Virus record (IMG/VR): IMGVR_UViG_3300021387_001585 | Location: 1-64,000 of that record | Strand: one strand, 5' to 3' | DNA from: a virus | Taxonomy: Duplodnaviria; Caudoviricetes | DNA: 64,000 nt | Shown here: in pieces, positions 7,301-53,034 of the stretch | How positions within the stretch are numbered: the stretch's first letter is position 1 | Layout of the letters: the number at the start of each line of letters is the position of its first letter | Made by a program: the position numbers and the translations under genes | The notes under the pieces: generated by a model | What the model saw: only the letters and a program-made list of their open reading frames with translations | Database searches by the model: none | Told to the model about the DNA's origin: nothing

Positions 7301-9723
7301 CACACGTCGGCATCCTTTGCCCACTTCGACCAGAGCGACATCTTATAGTCGTTGTTCTTACCCGTGAACTTCGTCCACGCACGGCTGCCGTCGGCAGCAG
7401 CACTGGCCTTGCTGCGCATGGCCACCCATTCGTAGGGGTACGTCTCGTCAGGCCCTGCCGGTTCGTCCGTCGTCTTCAGCTGCTCTGCCTGGGAAGCGGT
7501 GCGGCTTGCTGCCGTGATGTTCGGCAGGAACTCGTCAGACAGGTAGCCATCCTGCGTGGAGTCCATGACAGGCGGCACGGCCTTCTTGGTGCGCATGAAC
7601 ACATACTCCGTGCCGTCGCCGTCCATGCCATTGCGTCCGTAGTGACTCCAGAGTATCGGCGCATCGGTGCTGGAACCCGTGCCCTGACGGCCTCGCCAGG
7701 CGCCCCAAGCACGAGTATCTGTCCCCGTGGCTGTCTGCGTGCGGTAGCAAGCATATTCATAGATATATTCAGAGTCGACGCCCTGTGGGTGGTTGCTCCA
7801 TCCTTCAGGCACGTAACCGTCGCGGTCTTCGCTCGTCGTGGGAAGGGCCGGCACGCCGTCGGACTCCCTCACCTTCTTATAGATCCACTCCGTGCCGTCG
7901 CCGTCTTCACCCGGCGTGCCGTTGTCACCGCTGATGCGAACAGGCGTTGCCCATTCGTCGACGGTATTATCCTGCGTGTTGAGCTGTCCCGTCGACATCC
8001 AGAGAAAACCGTTGTCGGTGCGGTTGGGGGCCGACTTATACCACCCAGTGCTCGCGGCAGGCGGGTAAGCCTTGGAGGCAGGCACGGTTGGCGGCGTGTC
8101 GCCGCTGGCGTCCCACTTGAAGATGCTCACCGTATTGCCGCCGGGACTGCCGTCGGCACCATAATGGCTCCAGATGACAGGAGCATGGAAGTCGCCCCAC
8201 TGGTTGGTTGTGTTGTCATGGTCGCGCCACGACGCATATTCAGTATCGCCCGACTCGCTGACACCTACAGGGTCGTCGGTCCAGTCGACCGGCACAAACT
8301 CATCATCCTGAAATTCCTTGCCGCGGTTCGCCACCTTACTGTCGTAGCCCTCGCTGCTGTTCAGTCGGTATATCCATTCACGGTCGCTACCATCCTCTCC
8401 GTCGCGCACGAACGCAATGCTGGCGGCCGACAGTTCAACGCCTGCCGCATTCCGCAGCCGCACGTCGAGACTTTTCTGCGCTGAGAATGCGCTGATGGGA
8501 ATATTCGCCTTTGCTTCTGCTGACGACGTACCTGCGAACTCCAGCTCGGTAGCGCTGTCATCGGATGCACCCGATGCGACATAGAGCACCGTGAGCTGTG
8601 CGGCATCGAATAATGCCTGCGTGAGAAAGAACACCGAGCCGTCCTGCTTCACGGCACGGATGCGCACGTCGATGCCCTCACTGGGAGAATACTGCTCCGT
8701 GACGGGGCTATAGCTGGCGATATGCGTGCTCAGGGCCAGCTCGTATCGCTCTGCCGTTTCGGCGAGAATGGTGATGGCGGCTGAAGCCAGTTCAATGAGC
8801 ACGGGTTCTTCCTCAGTATCTTCAGGGTTTCCGGAGGAATCGGAGCTTTCGGAATTTTCCGAATCATCAGAAGGTTCCTGTTCGCCCCACGCCGTGATGA
8901 CAAATGCCGCTGCCGGAGCCCCGTTGAAGTCGTCGGCATCATGAGCGTGAGAGAGCGTCACCTGTCCGTTGGTCATGGTGCGTGGAGTCGGTTCCGCCTC
9001 CGGATCGGCATCCTCTGCCACCGGGAAGTTCCACGCCGCGTCAGCTTCGGCATCGCCCGTGTCGCGACGGATGGTCCACCGCTTCACCTTACCGGCGTCC
9101 ACGCTGCCGTCCCATCCTTCCACCAACTTAGCCACAATGTTGATATTCTCCTCCCATGCAACGTAGGGCACGCCAGCCTCCTTGCTGTTGGTAATCTCCA
9201 CGCGCAGCGGCAGTTCGTCGGGATTCAGTTCCCATTCCTCATTGTACTGGTCGGTGCCGAGAATGCCCGTATCGTAAGAGACAGAGCGCTGACCTCCCTC
9301 GGGCAGACTGACATCTCCCAAACGAATGAACCAGTAGGACTCGATGGCGCTGATGACATCGGCCGAAGGCGTATAGCTGATGATGCTAAACCCGTCTTTC
9401 GTGACGCATGGGTACTTGTCGGAGAAGTTCACCCCGTCCCACACCTTTGGTGCGAATACGAGGTAGCCTGCCGTTCCGTTCTTCTGCAGGCGTGCATAGA
9501 TGGTGTAAGGAGAATCTGAATTAGCCAGACGGCGGTTGAGACCAGACAGCAGCCACTCCTGGTAATTGCCGTTTACCGTATTGATGCCTGCAGCAGCCGA
9601 GAATACCTTTATCTTTGCGTTCTCGGTGACAGATACCGCCAGGTCGTTTTGTGAGCCGTTGGCATTGGGAATGATGCTGATAGCAGATGGTGCTATGTAG
9701 TGAATAGGTGATGTACGTGGCAT
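4342..9723 (-). CDS. large tail fibre or host-specificity protein (about 1790 aa)
   Basis: Repeated DGxDG linkers, repeated W-rich modules (WSHYG) and Ig-like segments; ATG at 9723 (TTG at 9732 is an alternative). Confidence 0.75.
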   Translation of the reverse strand: MPRTSPIHYIAPSAISIIPNANGSQNDLAVSVTENAKIKVFSAAAGINTVNGNYQEWLLSGLNRRLANSDSPYTIYARLQKNGTAGYLVFAPKVWDGVNFSDKYPCVTKDGFSIISYTPSADVISAIESYWFIRLGDVSLPEGGQRSVSYDTGILGTDQYNEEWELNPDELPLRVEITNSKEAGVPYVAWEENINIVAKLVEGWDGSVDAGKVKRWTIRRDTGDAEADAAWNFPVAEDADPEAEPTPRTMTNGQVTLSHAHDADDFNGAPAAAFVITAWGEQEPSDDSENSESSDSSGNPEDTEEEPVLIELASAAITILAETAERYELALSTHIASYSPVTEQYSPSEGIDVRIRAVKQDGSVFFLTQALFDAAQLTVLYVASGASDDSATELEFAGTSSAEAKANIPISAFSAQKSLDVRLRNAAGVELSAASIAFVRDGEDGSDREWIYRLNSSEGYDSKVANRGKEFQDDEFVPVDWTDDPVGVSESGDTEYASWRDHDNTTNQWGDFHAPVIWSHYGADGSPGGNTVSIFKWDASGDTPPTVPASKAYPPAASTGWYKSAPNRTDNGFLWMSTGQLNTQDNTVDEWATPVRISGDNGTPGEDGDGTEWIYKKVRESDGVPALPTTSEDRDGYVPEGWSNHPQGVDSEYIYEYACYRTQTATGTDTRAWGAWRGRQGTGSSTDAPILWSHYGRNGMDGDGTEYVFMRTKKAVPPVMDSTQDGYLSDEFLPNITAASRTASQAEQLKTTDEPAGPDETYPYEWVAMRSKASAAADGSRAWTKFTGKNNDYKMSLWSKWAKDADVWTIGDDGYWYKNGEKTDIKAEGSDGTGVQLRDSVDVLYSADAQSGQTSLQGLTGVAVGDCYVVNANRHLYFYTGEGSFPDNWKDLGEFKGEPGENSYMHIAYAEEVTLVGGVVTAVTGFSVTKQRDDYPWIGLRVDHNETDPGANAQTDAEKLAAAKLYEWNYVKGADGTSPWVADLDNEMDSVACNFSGRPSRTQEVETTLALYYGSNPQNFKIVSVKRNSSSTMGTGVTVKIDGVAQTSTNTTALSHTVAITYINTATINGKDDYEITLANADETVTRTLHFTVNGIRPGANGGDAVIYNLKPSLSQINVSRTDAGGYTPTNVVLTCGYVKNEGGVFTIVADEKNLIDNTYYIYYRLRSRSSKKWFTYYRYGSANAYAALATIGVAPATYDAVEFILCTNSTDTITSEDDVTELIDRETVPVVADGQDGEDGEPGEPGEDAYSLTADPPSVSFECNSSGLCIENVAKEVELTMYKGTGQVDFTAVVESAENCVARVTGSTVLIYAGVAWKNGSRVVYTEKNYPQVAAGDAVYDANGKAVGSVTSAGTVFIMYNGTRYTNPANRDLSNAGRVVVKATADNVSRNITITVVGNKRGADGTPGSAGAMLYPAGIWEAKTYTANGDSRPYVLYQPNNSYYYLNTTSASASDMPGTSSKWTLMSQVDVVYAKFGIMDYGKMASSIFCGDWMYSQYGKLYTSANAYTEVNEANYETPYTFDGNTAVPYAWFNPEYPQGGARATFAPNWAVNLRTGESFQGAANISGTVRADNFYVSTMFVGDVETDTCIALLYRDTFRGHSNYPTSGSEWYDVCQAFSEGDIVDLAKRQDLAAFFSSTFPDETLPPGWCPVTGNKQKVFVIPGADFDCIYLPSPRLYPGKMVEIYNHTSQSVNVQCADSPNDNPDSYYDNIRYRSNVFAKVSNTSQSDFEGVYISTEYKKLMVDYTYVSYTAILAAGKKTTFVSMPIFETGVAQSESQYFWAIVESTAIF

Positions 9724-48280: not shown

Positions 48281-48316
48281 AGTCGTTACTCGTTTAAAAT
48301 TTTCTTTTCCAGACTG

Positions 48317-49211
48317 CCTCGCGGTGTGGCATAGTACTTTATGGGTTCGATATGAAGAGTGTTGACAGCTTCAGACAAGAGGCCGCCATCTTATTGATGG
48401 CCGCCTTGTCAGTCTGAGCTGGTCAATGTACTCTTAAATTAAATCCTCCGCTCTGCAGTCTCACATAGGCGGTATGCGCCGCCATACTCCCCTCTCCTTC
48501 GGGGAGGGGAAGGGGGTGGGGCCTGCTCATCATCCATAGCGCATCGCTTTACGTTGCCGATAAGTTCCGGTGTAACTTACCTGGATGATACTGGGAATCG
48601 CCCAGTTAAATCCAGGTAAAATTGTGAACCGGAATTTTAAAACCGTTGGATGCCTTGCAGACCGTCGGGGTGCGCTCCCCTACCCTGCTCACGAACTCGG
48701 CACATCTGCTTTACTTGCTCGATATAATAACAGTGCTATACGAAGGTTCCGATGACCGGCGTCGTATAACAGTAGGGATACGACGCCGGTCATCGAACCC
48801 TTCTGTATCACTGTTTATTAAATGTGTGTCCGTCTTGCAGGATTGTCCCTGTGCTGGGATAGAATAGTCCTTACCTTGCGTCATGGCATAGTTCTATAAT
48901 CTTGCGATGGAAAGAGATCCGACGTAATTTACGGGTCCCTGAGACGTAGGGTCAGGGCCCCGCAAATGTTCAGTCGGATCTCTCTGAAAGATGACGCCCT
49001 GTAAGAACACGGCTGTATGCGCAGCCCATATCATCCTCGCTCTCCGTGCCCGGTGCGTGGCTATATAGTGCCGATGTGCCAGCTCAGGATGACCTGTCAG
49101 GTCATCTCGTCGGTCCACATACCATAGGGATGTCGGACCACGAGATGAACTCACAGGTTTAACCTGAGCTGCTAAAACGTTGCACGTCTTGCTTGGATAG
49201 GTCGCACGCCT
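48317..49211 (-). ncRNA. RT-associated structured ncRNA array A (5 units: 48317-48483, 48526-48680, 48688-48861, 48874-49026, 49042-49211)
   Basis: Shared scaffold with a covarying closing stem and small terminal hairpin; a unique long central hairpin in each unit; no credible ORF. Confidence 0.85.
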
Positions 49212-49225
49212 TTTCTTGGGTGGGT

Positions 49226-50305
49226 TTACTTACGCTTCTTGGCTGCTGCCCACTCCTTCATCTTAGCCTCGATGTCGATGCCGTTCTCGTCGAGCATCTG
49301 CTTCATAAGACCGAACAGGCGCCAGCCCTCACCGTCAGCATAGGCATTGGCAGCGTTCTCCAGCATCTGCAGCCCCGTCAGTCGGCGGTTATAGAAGTCG
49401 TTGTCCTTTGGGAACTGGCAGCCATGGAAGCGCAGCAGGTTCTGCATCGTGGCATACGCACCCATTCCCTTGTAGGCATCCTTCCATGCAGCACACTGGT
49501 CGTAGCAGCCACTTCCGCAAGGAGTGGCCTGCCAGAACTCACGCACAGCCTTGTAGAGATGTTGCGGAGTCTTGGTGACGTTGATGCCAAACATCAGGTG
49601 GCGAAGCGGACTTATCAGTTTCTTCTCAATGTCAGAGACGAAATAGTGCTTGTGGTCGATGGTTACGTAGGGCACACCCTTGCACTTGTGGCGCGGACGG
49701 TTCTGTACATCCTTCTCCAACTTCGTGATATAGTCCGCAGACATCGTCACGGCCAGCTCGCGGTTGAACCAGCGGTTACGCGCCGCAAAGTTCTCCATGT
49801 CCTTGCCATAGAGCTTCGCCTGCACTCGCAGCTCCTCCACCAGCATCTCCCACTGATACTTGTAGCCGTGGTTCTTTACCCACTCCGTGAATCCCCAACG
49901 GGAAGAAAGACCGTGGAAAACCTGCGACATCACCCATCTGCGGAACAGCGAGCGGTTGGGCACCGTGCCCTGCTTCACGATGGCCGCCATGATGGTGTCA
50001 TCAGCAGTTACGGCCACGGGAACACCCTCGTCCGACATCTTCATCAACTGCTCACCACCCGTGGGGAGCTGGATGGAGAAGTACTTGCTCGTGTCGATAC
50101 CGGAGGCGCGGAGCGCGTCGCCCCTCTTCGAGACGGGCAGGAATACCTCGCCCAGCCCTGAGTCCTTGCCGATAGCAATGCCGTTCTTCACCTTGTGCTC
50201 ATGTTCGCCAATAGCGAACTCCGTACCGCATACGGGGCACATCACCTTTGTTTCGTTGTTCTCACTCATGTTCTTGTTCACGTTTGAATTGTTCTTTGTT
50301 GCCAT
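49226..50305 (-). CDS. RT-array partner protein with N-terminal CPVC motif
   Basis: 359 aa; lies between the two arrays on the same strand as the RT. Confidence 0.75.
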   Translation of the reverse strand: MATKNNSNVNKNMSENNETKVMCPVCGTEFAIGEHEHKVKNGIAIGKDSGLGEVFLPVSKRGDALRASGIDTSKYFSIQLPTGGEQLMKMSDEGVPVAVTADDTIMAAIVKQGTVPNRSLFRRWVMSQVFHGLSSRWGFTEWVKNHGYKYQWEMLVEELRVQAKLYGKDMENFAARNRWFNRELAVTMSADYITKLEKDVQNRPRHKCKGVPYVTIDHKHYFVSDIEKKLISPLRHLMFGINVTKTPQHLYKAVREFWQATPCGSGCYDQCAAWKDAYKGMGAYATMQNLLRFHGCQFPKDNDFYNRRLTGLQMLENAANAYADGEGWRLFGLMKQMLDENGIDIEAKMKEWAAAKKRK

Positions 50306-50354
50306 AACTAAAAAATGATTTTAAGTTTAATAATTTTGTTCACTGTTTCGCTCG

Positions 50355-51232
50355 TCTTACGGATTGGCATAGTGCTTTAATTCGCTGATAAGAGGCGGTT
50401 CGTTGGTCTTCTGCAGAGAGTCTGCAGACGTGCTGATAAGACGTCTGCACGACTCACGGAAGAAGACTTAACGCCGCTACTTTGAATCGTTCCGTCCTGC
50501 GAGCATTAGGCAGTATGCGCTGCCATTTTCGTCAGCTATCCTCGCGGTGTGGCATATCGCTTTAGTTGTTTGATGAGTTCCCGCGTTAGAAGCACCGCCA
50601 CAGGTGGCAGCTGTGCGCTAGCACAGAAGCCCATGTGTGGGGGCTTATTGAAAACGCGGGAATCTGAAACCGTTCCGCTCTGATAGCCGTTGGCAGTATG
50701 CGCTGCCATTATTATCGCCTTGCGGCATGGCACATCGCTGTATTGCGTTGATGATAAGTACTGGTTTACCAGAATTGGCATCTGTTCCAGCTCGAAATTC
50801 TCGAGCTGGAACAGATGTGCAACTCTGGTTAAAAAACCGGCACCTAAAGGTGTACCGCCCTACGATAAATTCAGGTTGTGCGACCTGATGTTTCTCTGCT
50901 CCTTGCGACTCGGCACATCGACTGTAACTCGTCGATATTACCAGCGTGTGCCAGAACGAGGCGCCAGGACGCCGTCGGGTGGCAACCGGAACGGCGTCCA
51001 GGCGCCTGCTCTGGTTAAGCACGCTGGATATTAAATCATGCCGCCCTGAACAGCCAGGCTGTGTGCGCAGCCTTGTTATCCACCCTTGCGGTGTGGCATA
51101 GTTCTTTATGGGTTTGATTTAACGTCCCGAACGGGATTCTTACATCTCTTGTGCTGAGCACATCTCTTGTAAGAATCATCTTTCGGGCAGCGATGAATAA
51201 ACCGCCCTGGTGGATGTCCGGTATGCGCCGGA
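50355..51232 (-). ncRNA. RT-associated structured ncRNA array B (5 units: 50355-50524, 50540-50708, 50718-50888, 50901-51073, 51084-51232)
   Basis: Period about 183 nt; same scaffold as array A. Confidence 0.88.
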
Positions 51233-51239
51233 GTTATGA

Positions 51240-51437
51240 TTAACTAATCAATGCCATGCCGTATGGCTTTGCATAGATTACATAGAAGGCCGTCGGCGCA
51301 TCGACACCGAGTAACATGAAGCCATCCTTATCAAAGTAGAGCTCTCGTGCTTCCTCAAAAGTTTCGACATTGTCGACATGTAACTTATGGTCTTCGCTCT
51401 CGCTGAACACCTGATAAACAGCGTAATTAGTTTCCAT
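51240..51437 (-). CDS. small protein between the RT and array B
   Basis: 65 aa; starts 4 nt after the RT stop. Confidence 0.55.
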   Translation of the reverse strand: METNYAVYQVFSESEDHKLHVDNVETFEEARELYFDKDGFMLLGVDAPTAFYVIYAKPYGMALIS

Positions 51438-51441
51438 TTTT

Positions 51442-53034
51442 CTATTCTTTATTAGTCCAACTTCTCAGCACCACCAAGTCGGGGTCGTTCTCGCTCTGCC
51501 AGAACCAGCCCGCACCCTCGGGCATCTGGAAGCCCTGCAAGGCTTTCTCCAACTCCCGCTCGGCCTGCTCACGAGGTACGCCATAGAGCATATCCTCGTT
51601 GCTCAGTTCGCTCTCCGGCAGCGCATAGAAGCGCGGTGTGCGGCTCATCGTCCGCTCCGAGGGGATAGAGTGCTTATAGATAGCATAGAGCGTTTCGAGC
51701 GTTTCTACATCAACGGCGGCAGCAGGTTGTTCACTCTTCACTTTTCGCTTTTCACATCCGTTCAACGAGCGGACCAGCGACTCATACGCCGCCTTGCTCG
51801 TGCGGATAGCATTTTGCATACAACCCAGCGACAGATAGCCGCTGATGTCGTCGCCCGTCTTACGGCGGTTTGCCGACACGTTGCGACCCTTGCCACGGAC
51901 GATGCAGCCCTCACGGCCCTGCTTGTCATAGCCCAGGCCGCCCAGCTTCGTCTTACCCGTATGCACGGCACGCAGACAATCCATCACGAACACGTTCAGC
52001 GTGTCGATGTCCTTACGCACATTCACGATAGGCAACACTTGCGTTGCCCACGAGTGCCCCTGCCCGTCGCCACGGTAGAGATAGCGATTCACACGGTTAA
52101 GCGCCGTCCTGTATGTCGTCGTACCACGACGACGCACCGTCCTCGCCTCAATCTCCCGCTGAAAGCTCTTGATGCGAGTAGAGCTCAGGCTGATGCTCTT
52201 CCCCTTGATAGAGAAGCCCAGGAACTTAAACCAGTGGTCGGCATCCAGCCACTCCACCTTCTTCGGGTTCAGCTTCATGTCCATAGCGGCCAGTTCCTCC
52301 GTGAGTATCTGCATAGCCTTTTCAGCATCCGGCCCGATGAACAGCATATCGTCCGAGTAGCGGACGTAATAGCCATTCAACTGCGCCAGACGCTCGTCTA
52401 TGTGATAGAGAATGACGTCGGCCAGCCACGAGGCCACCGAACAGCCCTGCTTCAGCGACTGGTACTTGCTTTCCAGCTCGCCTTCCGGCGTGAAGTACAG
52501 GTCAGCATGATAGTACTTCCTGAGCACATCCAAAAGGGCACTCTTGCCGTGCCGTTCTTCCACCATGTCGAATGCCTGGTCGATATAGCGCAGAGGCACC
52601 GAATCGAAATACTTGCTCAGGTCGGATTTCCACCCAAGCCGTCCTGTGTGTTGCGACGTCGCAACGATAGCCGCAGAAACTTCCTGCACCACCCTGCCAC
52701 AGCCCACACCCTTCAGGTACGACTTGCAACGCGGATGCACCCTGTCAGCCATCAGTTCAAAGAGCAGGTCGTTGGCAATAGATAACAACACACGGTCAGC
52801 CGCCTCGTTCACATACACCGTGCGGAACTCGCCCGGCGTATCTTTCGGAATAAGCGCCGTATGTGGCGGTGCAATCTCGTACTGCCCGTCACGGATAGCC
52901 TTACACATCCGCAGCCGCATTTCCGGCTTGCATAACTGGAAGAGCACGTTCTTCGGAACGTCCTTACCCACGCCCTTGGCGATGGCGTATTCCCACCGCC
53001 CACCGTCGAAGAACATTTCTAAAATTTTATCCAT
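51442..53034 (-). CDS. reverse transcriptase, unknown-group type (possibly UG27-like)
   Basis: IPK..GEFR, DRV, SDLSKYFDSV, LKQG, YVRYSDD, LNPKK, FLGF. Confidence 0.93.
   Translation of the reverse strand: MDKILEMFFDGGRWEYAIAKGVGKDVPKNVLFQLCKPEMRLRMCKAIRDGQYEIAPPHTALIPKDTPGEFRTVYVNEAADRVLLSIANDLLFELMADRVHPRCKSYLKGVGCGRVVQEVSAAIVATSQHTGRLGWKSDLSKYFDSVPLRYIDQAFDMVEERHGKSALLDVLRKYYHADLYFTPEGELESKYQSLKQGCSVASWLADVILYHIDERLAQLNGYYVRYSDDMLFIGPDAEKAMQILTEELAAMDMKLNPKKVEWLDADHWFKFLGFSIKGKSISLSSTRIKSFQREIEARTVRRRGTTTYRTALNRVNRYLYRGDGQGHSWATQVLPIVNVRKDIDTLNVFVMDCLRAVHTGKTKLGGLGYDKQGREGCIVRGKGRNVSANRRKTGDDISGYLSLGCMQNAIRTSKAAYESLVRSLNGCEKRKVKSEQPAAAVDVETLETLYAIYKHSIPSERTMSRTPRFYALPESELSNEDMLYGVPREQAERELEKALQGFQMPEGAGWFWQSENDPDLVVLRSWTNKE

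What the first reader, a model, noticed from the sequence alone, without database searches (positions are those of the whole stretch)
50395..51187. The variable hairpin cargo could act as a library of dsDNA decoys
Seen: the central hairpins share no sequence but are long and bulged, for example CATCTGTTCCAGCTCGA-AATTC-TCGAGCTGGAACAGATG (50779-50817) and CGATGACCGGCGTCGTAT/ATACGACGCCGGTCATCG (48750-48795). They contain restriction-type palindromes such as CTGCAG, GACGTC, CTCGAG, GGCGCC, CAGCTG, CCWGG, GGNCC and GATC. The locus sits in the early region near a DarB-like antirestriction gene. Inference: multicopy hairpin cDNAs could titrate host restriction enzymes, DNA-sensing defences or transcription factors, with each unit covering different specificities. 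Palindromic words can also arise by chance in GC-rich stems.
Basis: inference. Interest (0 to 1): 0.75.

Follow-up and report, generated by a model that had tools for sequence, protein, structure and literature searches.

The report
UG27 phage hairpin-cDNA template array
The variable hairpins are the template parts of ten RNA units of an already described phage reverse-transcriptase system (UG27) that makes short hairpin DNAs of unknown purpose, and my tests give no support for the idea that they are a library of restriction-site decoys.

Summary
The hairpins are real and sit at the stated coordinates. They are the central stems of ten ncRNA units of a UG27 reverse-transcriptase system on the minus strand: an RT fused to the small accessory protein, the large accessory protein, and two arrays of five units. 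A September 2026 preprint showed that homologous systems copy exactly this stem into 50-100-nt hairpin cDNAs; their function is still unknown. This scan has already met UG27 arrays in several other genomes.

The restriction-decoy reading is not supported. In this window, palindromic words are at or below chance, and only one of the quoted 6-mers lies in an unbroken duplex. Across 288 cargo families from 189 related loci, total palindromes are not enriched. The most over-represented stem words are non-palindromic. Words avoided by the phage genomes tend to be avoided in the cargo as well. Palindromic sites are not better conserved than other words.

One exception remains unexplained: GATC is about four-fold depleted in these phages but not in the cargo.

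The cargo does behave like a diversifying set of structured DNA ligands. Stems covary, arrays almost never repeat a family, turnover is cassette-like, and no genome matches were found.

Verdict: a new member of a known kind; the broader decoy or bait idea remains open.

The parts
51442..53034 (-). UG27 reverse transcriptase (530 aa, YSDD active site) with the small accessory protein (sORF, RTas346) fused at residues ~437-529
   Evidence: PADLOC RT_UG27 E 1.6e-211 over residues 1-424 and RTas346 E 8e-23 over 437-529. Pfam RVT_1. Y226, D228 and D229 are invariant in alignment A1.
49226..50305 (-). Large accessory protein (bORF, RTas337), 359 aa, lying between the two arrays
   Evidence: PADLOC RTas337 E 2.7e-111. 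Present next to the RT on the same strand in 138 of 140 full-length related loci. No informative fold match.
50345..51235 (-). ncRNA array 1: five tandem units between the RT and the bORF; contains the finding's span
   Evidence: Five ATC-N7-TA-N-AG motifs at 50375, 50560, 50738, 50922 and 51104. Scaffold alignment and complementarity consistent with a pseudoknot and a closing helix.
48307..49215 (-). ncRNA array 2: five tandem units downstream of the bORF
   Evidence: Five motifs at 48337, 48547, 48709, 48894 and 49061.
51116..51201 (+). Predicted cDNA of unit 1 (the + strand is the cDNA sense; the template is the minus-strand RNA from UUYA to AUC)
   Evidence: Boundaries set from the published start and stop motifs. 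DNA fold z -4.6.
50934..51035 (+). Predicted cDNA of unit 2; carries GGCGCC in intact duplex
   Evidence: z -9.0. Cargo family shared with L002, L004, L006, L007 and others.
50750..50848 (+).
   Evidence: (z -9.9). No homologue in 189 loci.
50572..50668 (+). Predicted cDNA of unit 4
   Evidence: z -6.9. Singleton cargo.
50387..50486 (+). Predicted cDNA of unit 5; its CTGCAG x2 and GACGTC sites are interrupted by bulges
   Evidence: z -6.0.
49073..49176 (+). Predicted cDNA of unit 6
   Evidence: z -9.4. Homologous cargo in L001 and L120.
48906..48988 (+). Predicted cDNA of unit 7; a GATC in its basal duplex is kept in all six homologues
   Evidence: z -5.2.
48721..48822 (+).
   Evidence: (z -11.0). 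Homologues in L001 and L004.
48559..48641 (+). Predicted cDNA of unit 9
   Evidence: z -7.1. Homologues in L001 and L004.
48349..48443 (+). Predicted cDNA of unit 10
   Evidence: z -6.4. Singleton cargo.

Best explanation
The hairpins are the central template stems of ten ncRNA units of a UG27 (class 2 UG/Abi) reverse-transcriptase system carried by a 109-kb Bacteroidales phage.

Shown here from sequence:
- The RT-sORF fusion, the bORF and two arrays of five units all lie on the minus strand.
- Each unit has a basal hairpin, a stretch complementary to its loop (pseudoknot), a closing helix, and the motifs UUYA and AUC-N7-UA-N-AG bracketing a long, imperfect, unit-specific stem.

Taken from experiments on homologues (one of them, the Alistipes putredinis system, is my locus L187, with an RT 66% identical): the RT, together with both accessory proteins, starts at the AUC, copies the stem and stops after the UUYA. 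This gives a 50-100-nt single-stranded DNA that refolds into a hairpin with common short ends (5' GAT..., ...TRAA 3').

Inferred for this locus (about 0.85): ten different hairpin cDNAs of 83-104 nt are made.

Function (inferred, about 0.35-0.4): the cDNAs act as a diversifying set of structured DNA ligands. A common handle is held by the system's proteins, and the variable stem is recognised by its shape plus local duplex sequence. They would bait or sponge variable proteins in phage-host or phage-phage conflict. They are not a library of restriction-type palindromes; that specific reading is about 0.05-0.1.

The confidence given is for the identity, the biochemical output and the rejection of the palindrome library, not for the functional guess.
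For: Identity: PADLOC RT_UG27 1.6e-211, RTas346 and RTas337. There are ten motif hits on one strand only, all in the arrays. Pseudoknot-type complementarity changes from unit to unit (GCGCA/TGCGC, GCACA/TGTGC, GCGTG/CACGC) and each unit has its own closing helix. All ten cDNAs are far more stable than shuffles. The published description matches point by point. bORF and sORF co-occur with the RT in 138 and 135 of 140 full-length loci.

Against a palindrome library: the window counts are at or below chance. Over 182 families, duplex palindromic 4-mers are 175 against 165 expected, p 0.19, and the top words CAGG, CCAG, ACAG and ATCC are non-palindromic. Word bias in the phage genomes and in the cargo correlates positively (rho 0.38; for palindromes alone +0.11, +0.22 and +0.26 for k = 4, 5, 6). 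Retention of palindromic words within families equals that of other words (p 0.77).

For structured ligands under diversifying turnover: paired columns are 90% identical against about 75% for loops, and 116 of 467 pairs show two-sided compensatory change. G.U is not favoured over A.C (61 against 72), which would fit pairing mattering in both RNA and cDNA, among other readings. Only 4 of 162 loci repeat a cargo family; there are 288 families in 107 distinct arrays with near-linear rarefaction, and shared cassettes are collinear with gains and losses. Five of this phage's ten stems have no homologue in 189 loci. The arrays match nothing else in the phage or in two host genomes.
Against: - No experiment exists on this locus. 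The cDNA boundaries are transferred from homologues and could be off by a few nucleotides, because the choice of UUYA was manual.
- The functional part is inference only. Neither the published work nor I have a partner protein or a phenotype.
- Some 4-bp palindromes are individually over-represented in duplex: AGCT 33 against 10.9, CCGG 27 against 14.7, GATC 28 against 15.4.
- GATC escapes the strong genome-wide avoidance: O/E is 0.26 in the phage, 0.30 in the scaffolds and 1.2-1.7 in the cargo. A narrow site-specific decoy role is therefore not excluded.
- Units were found with a motif-plus-fold heuristic in one RT clade (48-83% identity), so families are not fully independent and the folds are MFE predictions.
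- REBASE motifs of the hosts could not be tested.
Confidence: 0.8

Rival explanations
1. One reading: the hairpin cDNAs are multicopy dsDNA decoys that carry restriction-enzyme recognition sites. Each unit covers other specificities, and together they titrate host restriction enzymes.
For: Hairpin RT-DNA can titrate DNA-binding proteins in cells, as shown with engineered retrons (bioRxiv 10.1101/2023.09.27.556556, found). The phage is under restriction pressure: GATC O/E is 0.25, and CTCGAG, ATGCAT and GCGCGC are each 0 against 12-15 expected in 62 kb. In the cargo, GATC, GGCC, CGCG and GGWCC are not avoided as they are in the rest of these phages. AGCT, CCGG and GATC are about 2-3 times above shuffles in duplex. 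One GATC is kept in all six homologues of unit 7.
Against: There is no excess of palindromes in the window or as a class in the family. Most of the quoted 6-mers are broken by bulges. Non-palindromic words are enriched more strongly. CTAG, CATG, GCGC and TGCA are as rare or rarer in the cargo than expected. Genome avoidance and cargo content correlate positively. Palindromic sites are not retained more than other words. At family level, GATC in whole hairpins is only at about random expectation (O/E 1.22). The DarB-like neighbour is not conserved. The phage already has its own C5 and N6/N4 methyltransferases. By inference, a decoy that must first be transcribed and reverse-transcribed comes late for restriction of incoming DNA, and Type IIP enzymes would simply cut such hairpins.
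Confidence: 0.07
2. A retron-like guard encoded by the (pro)phage. The hairpin cDNAs, held by the RT and accessory proteins, are sensors whose modification, cleavage or binding by proteins of a competing phage triggers an effector. Several different hairpins widen the range of triggers (superinfection exclusion).
For: UG/Abi RTs are mostly defence systems, and UG27 is a class 2 member (PMC9226505). The tested UG27 systems sit in integrated prophages, and I found relatives in genomes of Segatella, Alistipes, Bacteroides, Phocaeicola and others. The three-protein plus DNA architecture and the need for both accessory proteins recall retrons. High cargo turnover fits an arms race.
Against: No recognisable effector or toxin domain was found in bORF or sORF. 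Mestre et al. found no association with defence islands. In this phage the locus sits among early/replication-type genes on one strand. No toxicity was reported on expression in E. coli; the preprint describes only cDNA output.
Confidence: 0.2
3. Guide function: part of each cDNA pairs with a complementary host or phage nucleic acid and directs the protein complex to it.
For: The layout is modular and array-like, with a conserved handle and a variable part, which recalls CRISPR RNAs. Units are gained and lost.
Against: The arrays have no significant match elsewhere in the phage: best 14-17 nt, E >= 0.3. The resident arrays of two prophages have none in their host genomes: best E 0.06-0.1. The preprint reports the same. 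Both arms covary to keep self-pairing, so little sequence is free to pair with a target. Loops and bulges are the least conserved parts.
Confidence: 0.05
4. The cDNA hairpins serve the phage's own DNA metabolism (primers, replication or packaging cofactors, or regulators of the lysis-lysogeny decision), or the RNA is the active species and the cDNA is secondary.
For: The locus lies in a block of replication/repair-type genes: a processivity-factor/RusA-like hit, a MutS domain I protein and a helicase-methylase. G.U is not favoured in the stems, so the element is not a plain structural RNA.
Against: A housekeeping role does not explain ten mutually different stems, near-linear rarefaction of cargo families or cassette turnover between close relatives. 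The neighbouring genes are not conserved around the system.
Confidence: 0.1

Closest known systems
UG27 reverse-transcriptase systems of gut phages (Mestre et al. 2022, PMC9226505; Li et al. 2026, bioRxiv 10.64898/2026.09.22.753630)
   Same: The RT family, both accessory proteins, tandem ~150-185-nt ncRNA units with a basal hairpin, pseudoknot, UUYA and AUC-N7-UA-N-AG motifs, a variable central stem, phage context and a Bacteroidota host range all match.
   Different: Here the small accessory protein is fused to the RT C-terminus, a feature shared with its closest relatives. The ten units are split 5+5 around the bORF. Both are within the variation the preprint mentions (gene order varies; extra units occur in neighbouring spacers). 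cDNA synthesis has not been shown for this locus.
Retrons (msr-msd ncRNA, msDNA hairpin, RT plus effector)
   Same: An RT copies part of a structured ncRNA into an abundant short hairpin ssDNA, and accessory proteins are required. This is similarity of working principle.
   Different: The RT scores only weakly against retron models: 3.4e-9 for RT_Ec107-like and below the cut-off for NCBIfam retron_St85_RT, against 1.6e-211 for UG27. There are many templates per RT instead of one, no recognisable effector domain, a phage rather than a host defence-island context, and an unknown priming mode.
Engineered retron 'decoy' DNA (bioRxiv 10.1101/2023.09.27.556556)
   Same: Reverse-transcribed hairpin DNA carrying protein-binding duplex sites sequesters DNA-binding proteins in vivo.
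   Different: It is synthetic, with known operator sites. In the natural cargo here I find no class of recognisable binding sites enriched.
Phage nucleic-acid or mimic decoys against defence: RNA anti-CRISPRs (repeat mimics) and DNA-mimic proteins Ocr/ArdA against Type I restriction (from my own knowledge, not checked here)
   Same: The concept is the same: a phage floods the cell with a mimic of the defence system's ligand.
   Different: Those mimics have an identifiable likeness to the ligand (a CRISPR repeat; B-DNA shape). No such likeness has been identified for UG27 hairpins.

Membership tests
UG27 RT system | RT belongs to the UG27 group | tested here: met
   PADLOC RT_UG27 E 1.6e-211, 700 bits, covering 419 of 420 profile positions. 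The next best is UG26 at 3.8e-34.
UG27 RT system | Catalytic YSDD motif intact | tested here: met
   Y226, D228 and D229 are invariant, with the consensus ...VRYSDDMLF... in alignment A1.
UG27 RT system | Small accessory protein (cluster 346 / sORF) present | tested here: met
   RTas346 E 8.2e-23 at residues 437-529 of the RT polypeptide, so it is fused. Homologues are present in 135 of 140 full-length loci.
UG27 RT system | Large accessory protein (cluster 337 / bORF) present | tested here: met
   RTas337 E 2.7e-111. Present in 138 of 140 full-length loci, on the same strand.
UG27 RT system | Array of ncRNA units with AUC-N7-UA-N-AG and UUYA bracketing a variable central hairpin | tested here: met
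   Ten exact motif hits, strand-specific and confined to the arrays. A UUYA precedes each stem. The hairpins are significant.
UG27 RT system | Basal hairpin loop pairs with the 3' scaffold (pseudoknot), and a closing helix is present | tested here: inconclusive
   A simple complementarity scan finds unit-specific 5-8-nt partners with covarying sequences in several units, for example GCGCA/TGCGC, GCACA/TGTGC and GCGTG/CACGC. No covariance model or R-scape-type test was run.
UG27 RT system | RT-dependent 50-100-nt cDNA from each central hairpin | not testable with these tools
   Shown for five homologous systems. One of them (Alistipes putredinis DSM 17216) is my locus L187, with an RT 66% identical.
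Retron | RT of the retron clade | tested here: not met
   The best retron models are far weaker than UG27: RT_Ec107-like 3.4e-9, and NCBIfam retron_St85_RT 32.9 bits against a cut-off of 235.
Diversity-generating retroelement | A template repeat with a near-identical variable repeat in a target gene | tested here: not met
   The array has no second copy in the 109-kb phage record beyond short chance matches.
   Window: p 0.36 and 0.77. Family total: 175 against 165, p 0.19. Individual words AGCT, CCGG and GATC are enriched, but less than non-palindromic words.
   Spearman correlation of genome O/E with cargo O/E is positive for palindromes (+0.11, +0.22, +0.26). GATC is a lone clear exception.
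   This needs plating assays.

The most novel reading that the evidence does not exclude
UG27 arrays are a phage-borne, rapidly diversifying library of hairpin-DNA ligands. Each cassette would be tuned to bind (bait, sponge or be modified by) a different host or rival-phage protein. A subset carrying GATC-type sites, exempt from the genome's own site avoidance, might address GATC-specific methylases or nucleases. This would be a natural nucleic-acid counterpart of protein sponges and of engineered retron decoys.
Probability: 0.3. Interest if true: 0.8.

Novelty: new member of a known kind. Interest (0 to 1): 0.35.

Why it matters
UG27 is one of the most abundant reverse-transcriptase systems in gut and rumen phages. 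Its biochemical product is now known, but its purpose is not.

Showing that the obvious restriction-site-decoy idea fails simple sequence tests narrows the search. The cargo behaves as covarying, mutually distinct, fast-turning-over duplex cassettes with no genomic targets. The next experiments should therefore look for protein partners of individual hairpins rather than for complementary nucleic acids or restriction sites.

The GATC exemption is a concrete, cheap lead.

Tried and rejected
- **Rfam scan** of 46-54 kb: only sub-threshold miRNA-precursor look-alikes of the perfect stems, and no curated family.
- **nhmmer profiles** of the 5' and 3' scaffolds found too few units, 24-69. I replaced them with the motif plus an upstream-hairpin filter.
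- **bORF.** No Pfam, NCBIfam or PHROG family. The AlphaFold2 model from 17 sequences has pLDDT 73.7. Foldseek against the PDB gives nothing at E <= 0.001. VIA-align wide gives only generic helical-bundle rows, Z <= 6.9, covering residues 141-268. This is uninformative, not evidence of a new fold.
- **Fixed scaffold motif as an explanation** for the AGCT/CCGG/GATC excess: rejected, because positions and contexts are scattered.
- **Palindrome doubling by the two arms as an artefact:** it affects the variance, not the mean, so only 5' arms in stacked duplex were counted.
- **Conservation gradient along the stem** (basal against apical): essentially flat, 0.87-0.90.
- **MutS domain I and DarB-like genes as conserved partners:** rejected, found in 21 and 0 of 189 loci.
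- **Dam-type (D12) methylase in the phage:** none found.
- **Not done:** a REBASE-motif test (no such library here), a covariance-model search, and CRISPR-spacer matching.

Full report
**What is there.** The region lies in a minus-strand gene block of a 109,175-bp virus record, of which the window is bases 1-64000.
- A 530-aa ORF (53034-51442) is a reverse transcriptase (Pfam RVT_1). It matches the PADLOC model RT_UG27 at E 1.6e-211 over residues 1-424, and the UG27-associated small protein RTas346 over residues 437-529.
- The 359-aa ORF at 50305-49226 matches the second UG27 partner, RTas337, at 2.7e-111.
- Between and after these genes lie two ORF-poor stretches. The 15-nt pattern ATC-N7-TA-N-AG occurs on the minus strand exactly ten times in 64 kb: five times in each stretch and nowhere else. 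The other strand has five scattered hits.

**The units.** Each unit, read as minus-strand RNA, has these parts in order:
- a small GC hairpin;
- a linker;
- a UUYA;
- a long unit-specific imperfect hairpin;
- the AUC-N7-UA-N-AG motif;
- a stretch complementary to the loop of the small hairpin;
- a closing-helix strand.

**What is known.** UG27 was defined by Mestre et al. 2022 (PMC9226505) as a class 2 UG/Abi RT of gut phages with two partner gene clusters and a structured intergenic RNA. A preprint of September 2026 (bioRxiv 10.64898/2026.09.22.753630) describes exactly this architecture. It reports arrays of ~150-nt units with a basal hairpin, a pseudoknot and the motifs AUCNNNNNNNUANAG and UUYA.

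For five systems expressed in E. coli, the preprint shows RT-dependent 50-100-nt ssDNAs. They start at the AUC and end after the UUYA, they need both accessory proteins, and they refold into bulged hairpins. [quoted passage not shown]

One of their systems, in Alistipes putredinis DSM 17216, is my locus L187; its RT is 66% identical to this one. The multicopy hairpin cDNA premise is therefore well founded by homology, though untested for this locus.

Applying the published boundaries gives ten + strand cDNAs of 83-104 nt. All fold far better than dinucleotide shuffles, with z from -4.6 to -11.

**Test of the decoy idea in the window.**
- Naive counts of palindromic words are at or below shuffle expectation. 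In the finding's span, 4-mers are 43 against 54.3 and 6-mers 10 against 13.8. Over both arrays, 6-mers are 17 against 30.7.
- Counting only words that lie in stacked duplex of the 5' arm of the DNA fold, which is what an enzyme would see, gives 11 against 9.6 (p 0.36) for 4-mers and 1 against 1.4 (p 0.77) for 6-mers.

**Test in the family.**
- I collected 189 related loci from viral contigs and bacterial genomes, with RT identity of 48-83%. Units were found by the motif plus an upstream hairpin. This gave 1,140 units (781 and 359), 708 distinct hairpins and 288 cargo families.
- With one hairpin per family (182 families at that stage) and shuffling confined to duplex segments, palindromic 4-mers total 175 against 165 expected (p 0.19).
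- The strongest excesses are non-palindromic: CAGG 76 against 28, CCAG 70 against 28, ACAG 58 against 22, ATCC 61 against 24.
- AGCT (33 against 10.9), CCGG (27 against 14.7) and GATC (28 against 15.4) are enriched, but GCGC, CATG and CTAG are depleted. Positions and contexts of the enriched sites are scattered, so they are not a hidden scaffold motif.
- A decoy library predicts that words the phage avoids are the ones it carries as cargo. The opposite holds in general. Observed/expected in the rest of the loci and in the cargo correlate positively (rho 0.38 for all 4-mers; +0.11, +0.22 and +0.26 for palindromic and quasi-palindromic 4-, 5- and 6-mers).
- Within 21 families of five or more variants, palindromic duplex words are retained no better than other words (p 0.77). 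The best-retained words are again CCAG and CAGG.

**The exception.** GATC is about four-fold depleted in these phages.
- In this window it occurs 54 times against 219 expected.
- Pooled over the loci, O/E is 0.26 in the rest of the sequence and 0.30 in the ncRNA scaffolds. In the cargo it is 1.7 over all arrays and 1.2 at one hairpin per family.
- GGCC, CGCG and GGWCC show a milder relief, whereas CTAG stays strongly avoided.
- One GATC in the basal duplex of unit 7 is kept in all six homologues while its flanks change.
- This does not amount to positive enrichment over random expectation, and GAT/ATC trinucleotides are generally frequent in the stems. It is still unexplained and worth a direct test.

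**What the cargo does look like.**
- In 24 families of six or more variants, paired columns are 90% identical against 75-76% for apical and internal loops. Of 467 consensus pairs, 116 show two-sided Watson-Crick compensation, evenly along the stem.
- Isolated mismatches show no preference for G.U (61) over A.C (72), and C.U is the commonest (108). Stems selected only as RNA would favour G.U. The pattern fits a duplex that must form in both the RNA and its cDNA complement, or mismatches kept as features.
- Arrays are made of mutually different stems: 4 of 162 loci repeat a family. There are 288 families in 107 distinct arrays, 199 of them seen in a single array, and rarefaction is nearly linear.
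- Families shared with this phage keep their order (46, 31, 8, 11) between insertions, losses and replacements. Five of the ten stems here have no homologue in the set.
- Some apical modules recur on different basal stems. By eye, the apex of unit 8 recurs in a hairpin of L019.
- The arrays match nothing else in the phage. The arrays of two prophages match nothing in their host genomes beyond chance.

**Context.** The DarB-like gene is real: an Eco57I-type methylase domain plus SNF2/helicase domains. It is absent from the 6-kb flanks of all 189 relatives, and the MutS domain I gene upstream is present only in 21 close ones. The neighbourhood therefore says little about the system.

The phage has other anti-restriction means. 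It shows strong site avoidance, and it encodes a C5 methyltransferase and an N6/N4 methyltransferase.

By inference, decoys that must first be transcribed and reverse-transcribed would arrive late for restriction of incoming DNA, unless they are packaged. Ordinary Type II enzymes would cut them rather than be trapped.

**Mechanism and odds.**
- Near certain: this is a UG27 system.
- About 0.85: it makes ten hairpin cDNAs with common ends and different stems.
[quoted passage not shown] They would work as baits or sponges in phage-host or phage-phage conflict.
- About 0.2: a retron-like guard in lysogens.
- About 0.1: a role in the phage's own DNA metabolism, or an RNA-level function.
- About 0.07: restriction-site decoys.
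- About 0.05: guides.

**Limits.**
- Unit detection is heuristic, and the loci come from one RT clade.
- Families are not fully independent.
- Structures are MFE predictions.
- BLAST would miss targets shorter than about 16 nt.
- Host recognition sequences from REBASE, including bipartite Type I and III sites, could not be tested.

**Verdict.** The element is a new member of a system already described in 2022 and 2026, and already met several times in this scan on other genomes. The specific decoy reading is not supported, and the broader question of what the hairpin DNAs do remains open.

Noticed in passing
window, whole (outside 48300-49225 and 50306-51240); pooled loci L001-L197: GATC is about four-fold under-represented in the phage: 54 against 219 expected here, and pooled O/E of 0.26 in the rest of the loci and 0.30 in the ncRNA scaffolds. 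It is not avoided in the cargo hairpins (O/E 1.2-1.7). CTAG stays avoided everywhere.
   Followed up: partly
window, whole: CTCGAG, ATGCAT and GCGCGC each occur 0 times in about 62 kb outside the arrays, against 12-15 expected. The only CTCGAG in the window is at the tip of unit 3, at 50800.
   Followed up: no
cargo stems of 182-288 families (related loci); window units at 50750-50848 and 50934-51035: The stems use a skewed vocabulary: CAGG, CCAG, ACAG and ATCC are 2.5-3 times above duplex shuffles and are also the best-retained words. A word TAACCAGA opens the apical stem in at least 8 families (AACCAGA in 13), including two units of this window.
   Followed up: partly
window:54311-55342 (-): A 343-aa protein with a MutS domain I (the mismatch-recognition domain; E 1.2e-32) lies 1.3 kb upstream of the RT. 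It is present near the RT only in 21 of 189 related loci. The mismatched hairpin cDNAs make it a curious neighbour.
   Followed up: partly
window:40900-45816 (-): A 1638-aa protein with an Eco57I-type N6-adenine methylase domain and SNF2/helicase C domains (DarB-like) is not found within 6 kb of the RT in any related locus.
   Followed up: partly
window:51442-53034 (-), residues 437-529: The small accessory protein is fused to the RT in this phage and in its closest relatives (L001-L009, L011, L012, L033, L036 and L042 match to residue ~526-530). In most others the RT match ends at about residue 424 and the sORF is separate.
   Followed up: partly
window:20792-22402 (-); G000:C1:76077-76700 (+), outside the window: The phage encodes its own C5-cytosine DNA methyltransferase (568-aa frame) and an N6/N4 methyltransferase (262 aa). 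No D12-class Dam was found.
   Followed up: no
window:48721-48822 and L019:~7650-7741: The apical stem-loop of unit 8 (GTCGTATCCCTA..GT.ATACGAC) recurs on a different basal stem in a phage whose RT is only 66% identical. This suggests that the stems are themselves modular (seen by eye).
   Followed up: no
window:51240-51437 (-): A 65-aa ORF between the RT and the first unit has no homologue in any of the 189 related loci and no family hit. It may not be a gene.
   Followed up: partly
cargo stems of 182 families: Among isolated stem mismatches, C.U (G.A in the cDNA) is the most frequent type (108). G.U is no commoner than A.C (61 against 72), which is unlike ordinary structural RNAs.
   Followed up: partly
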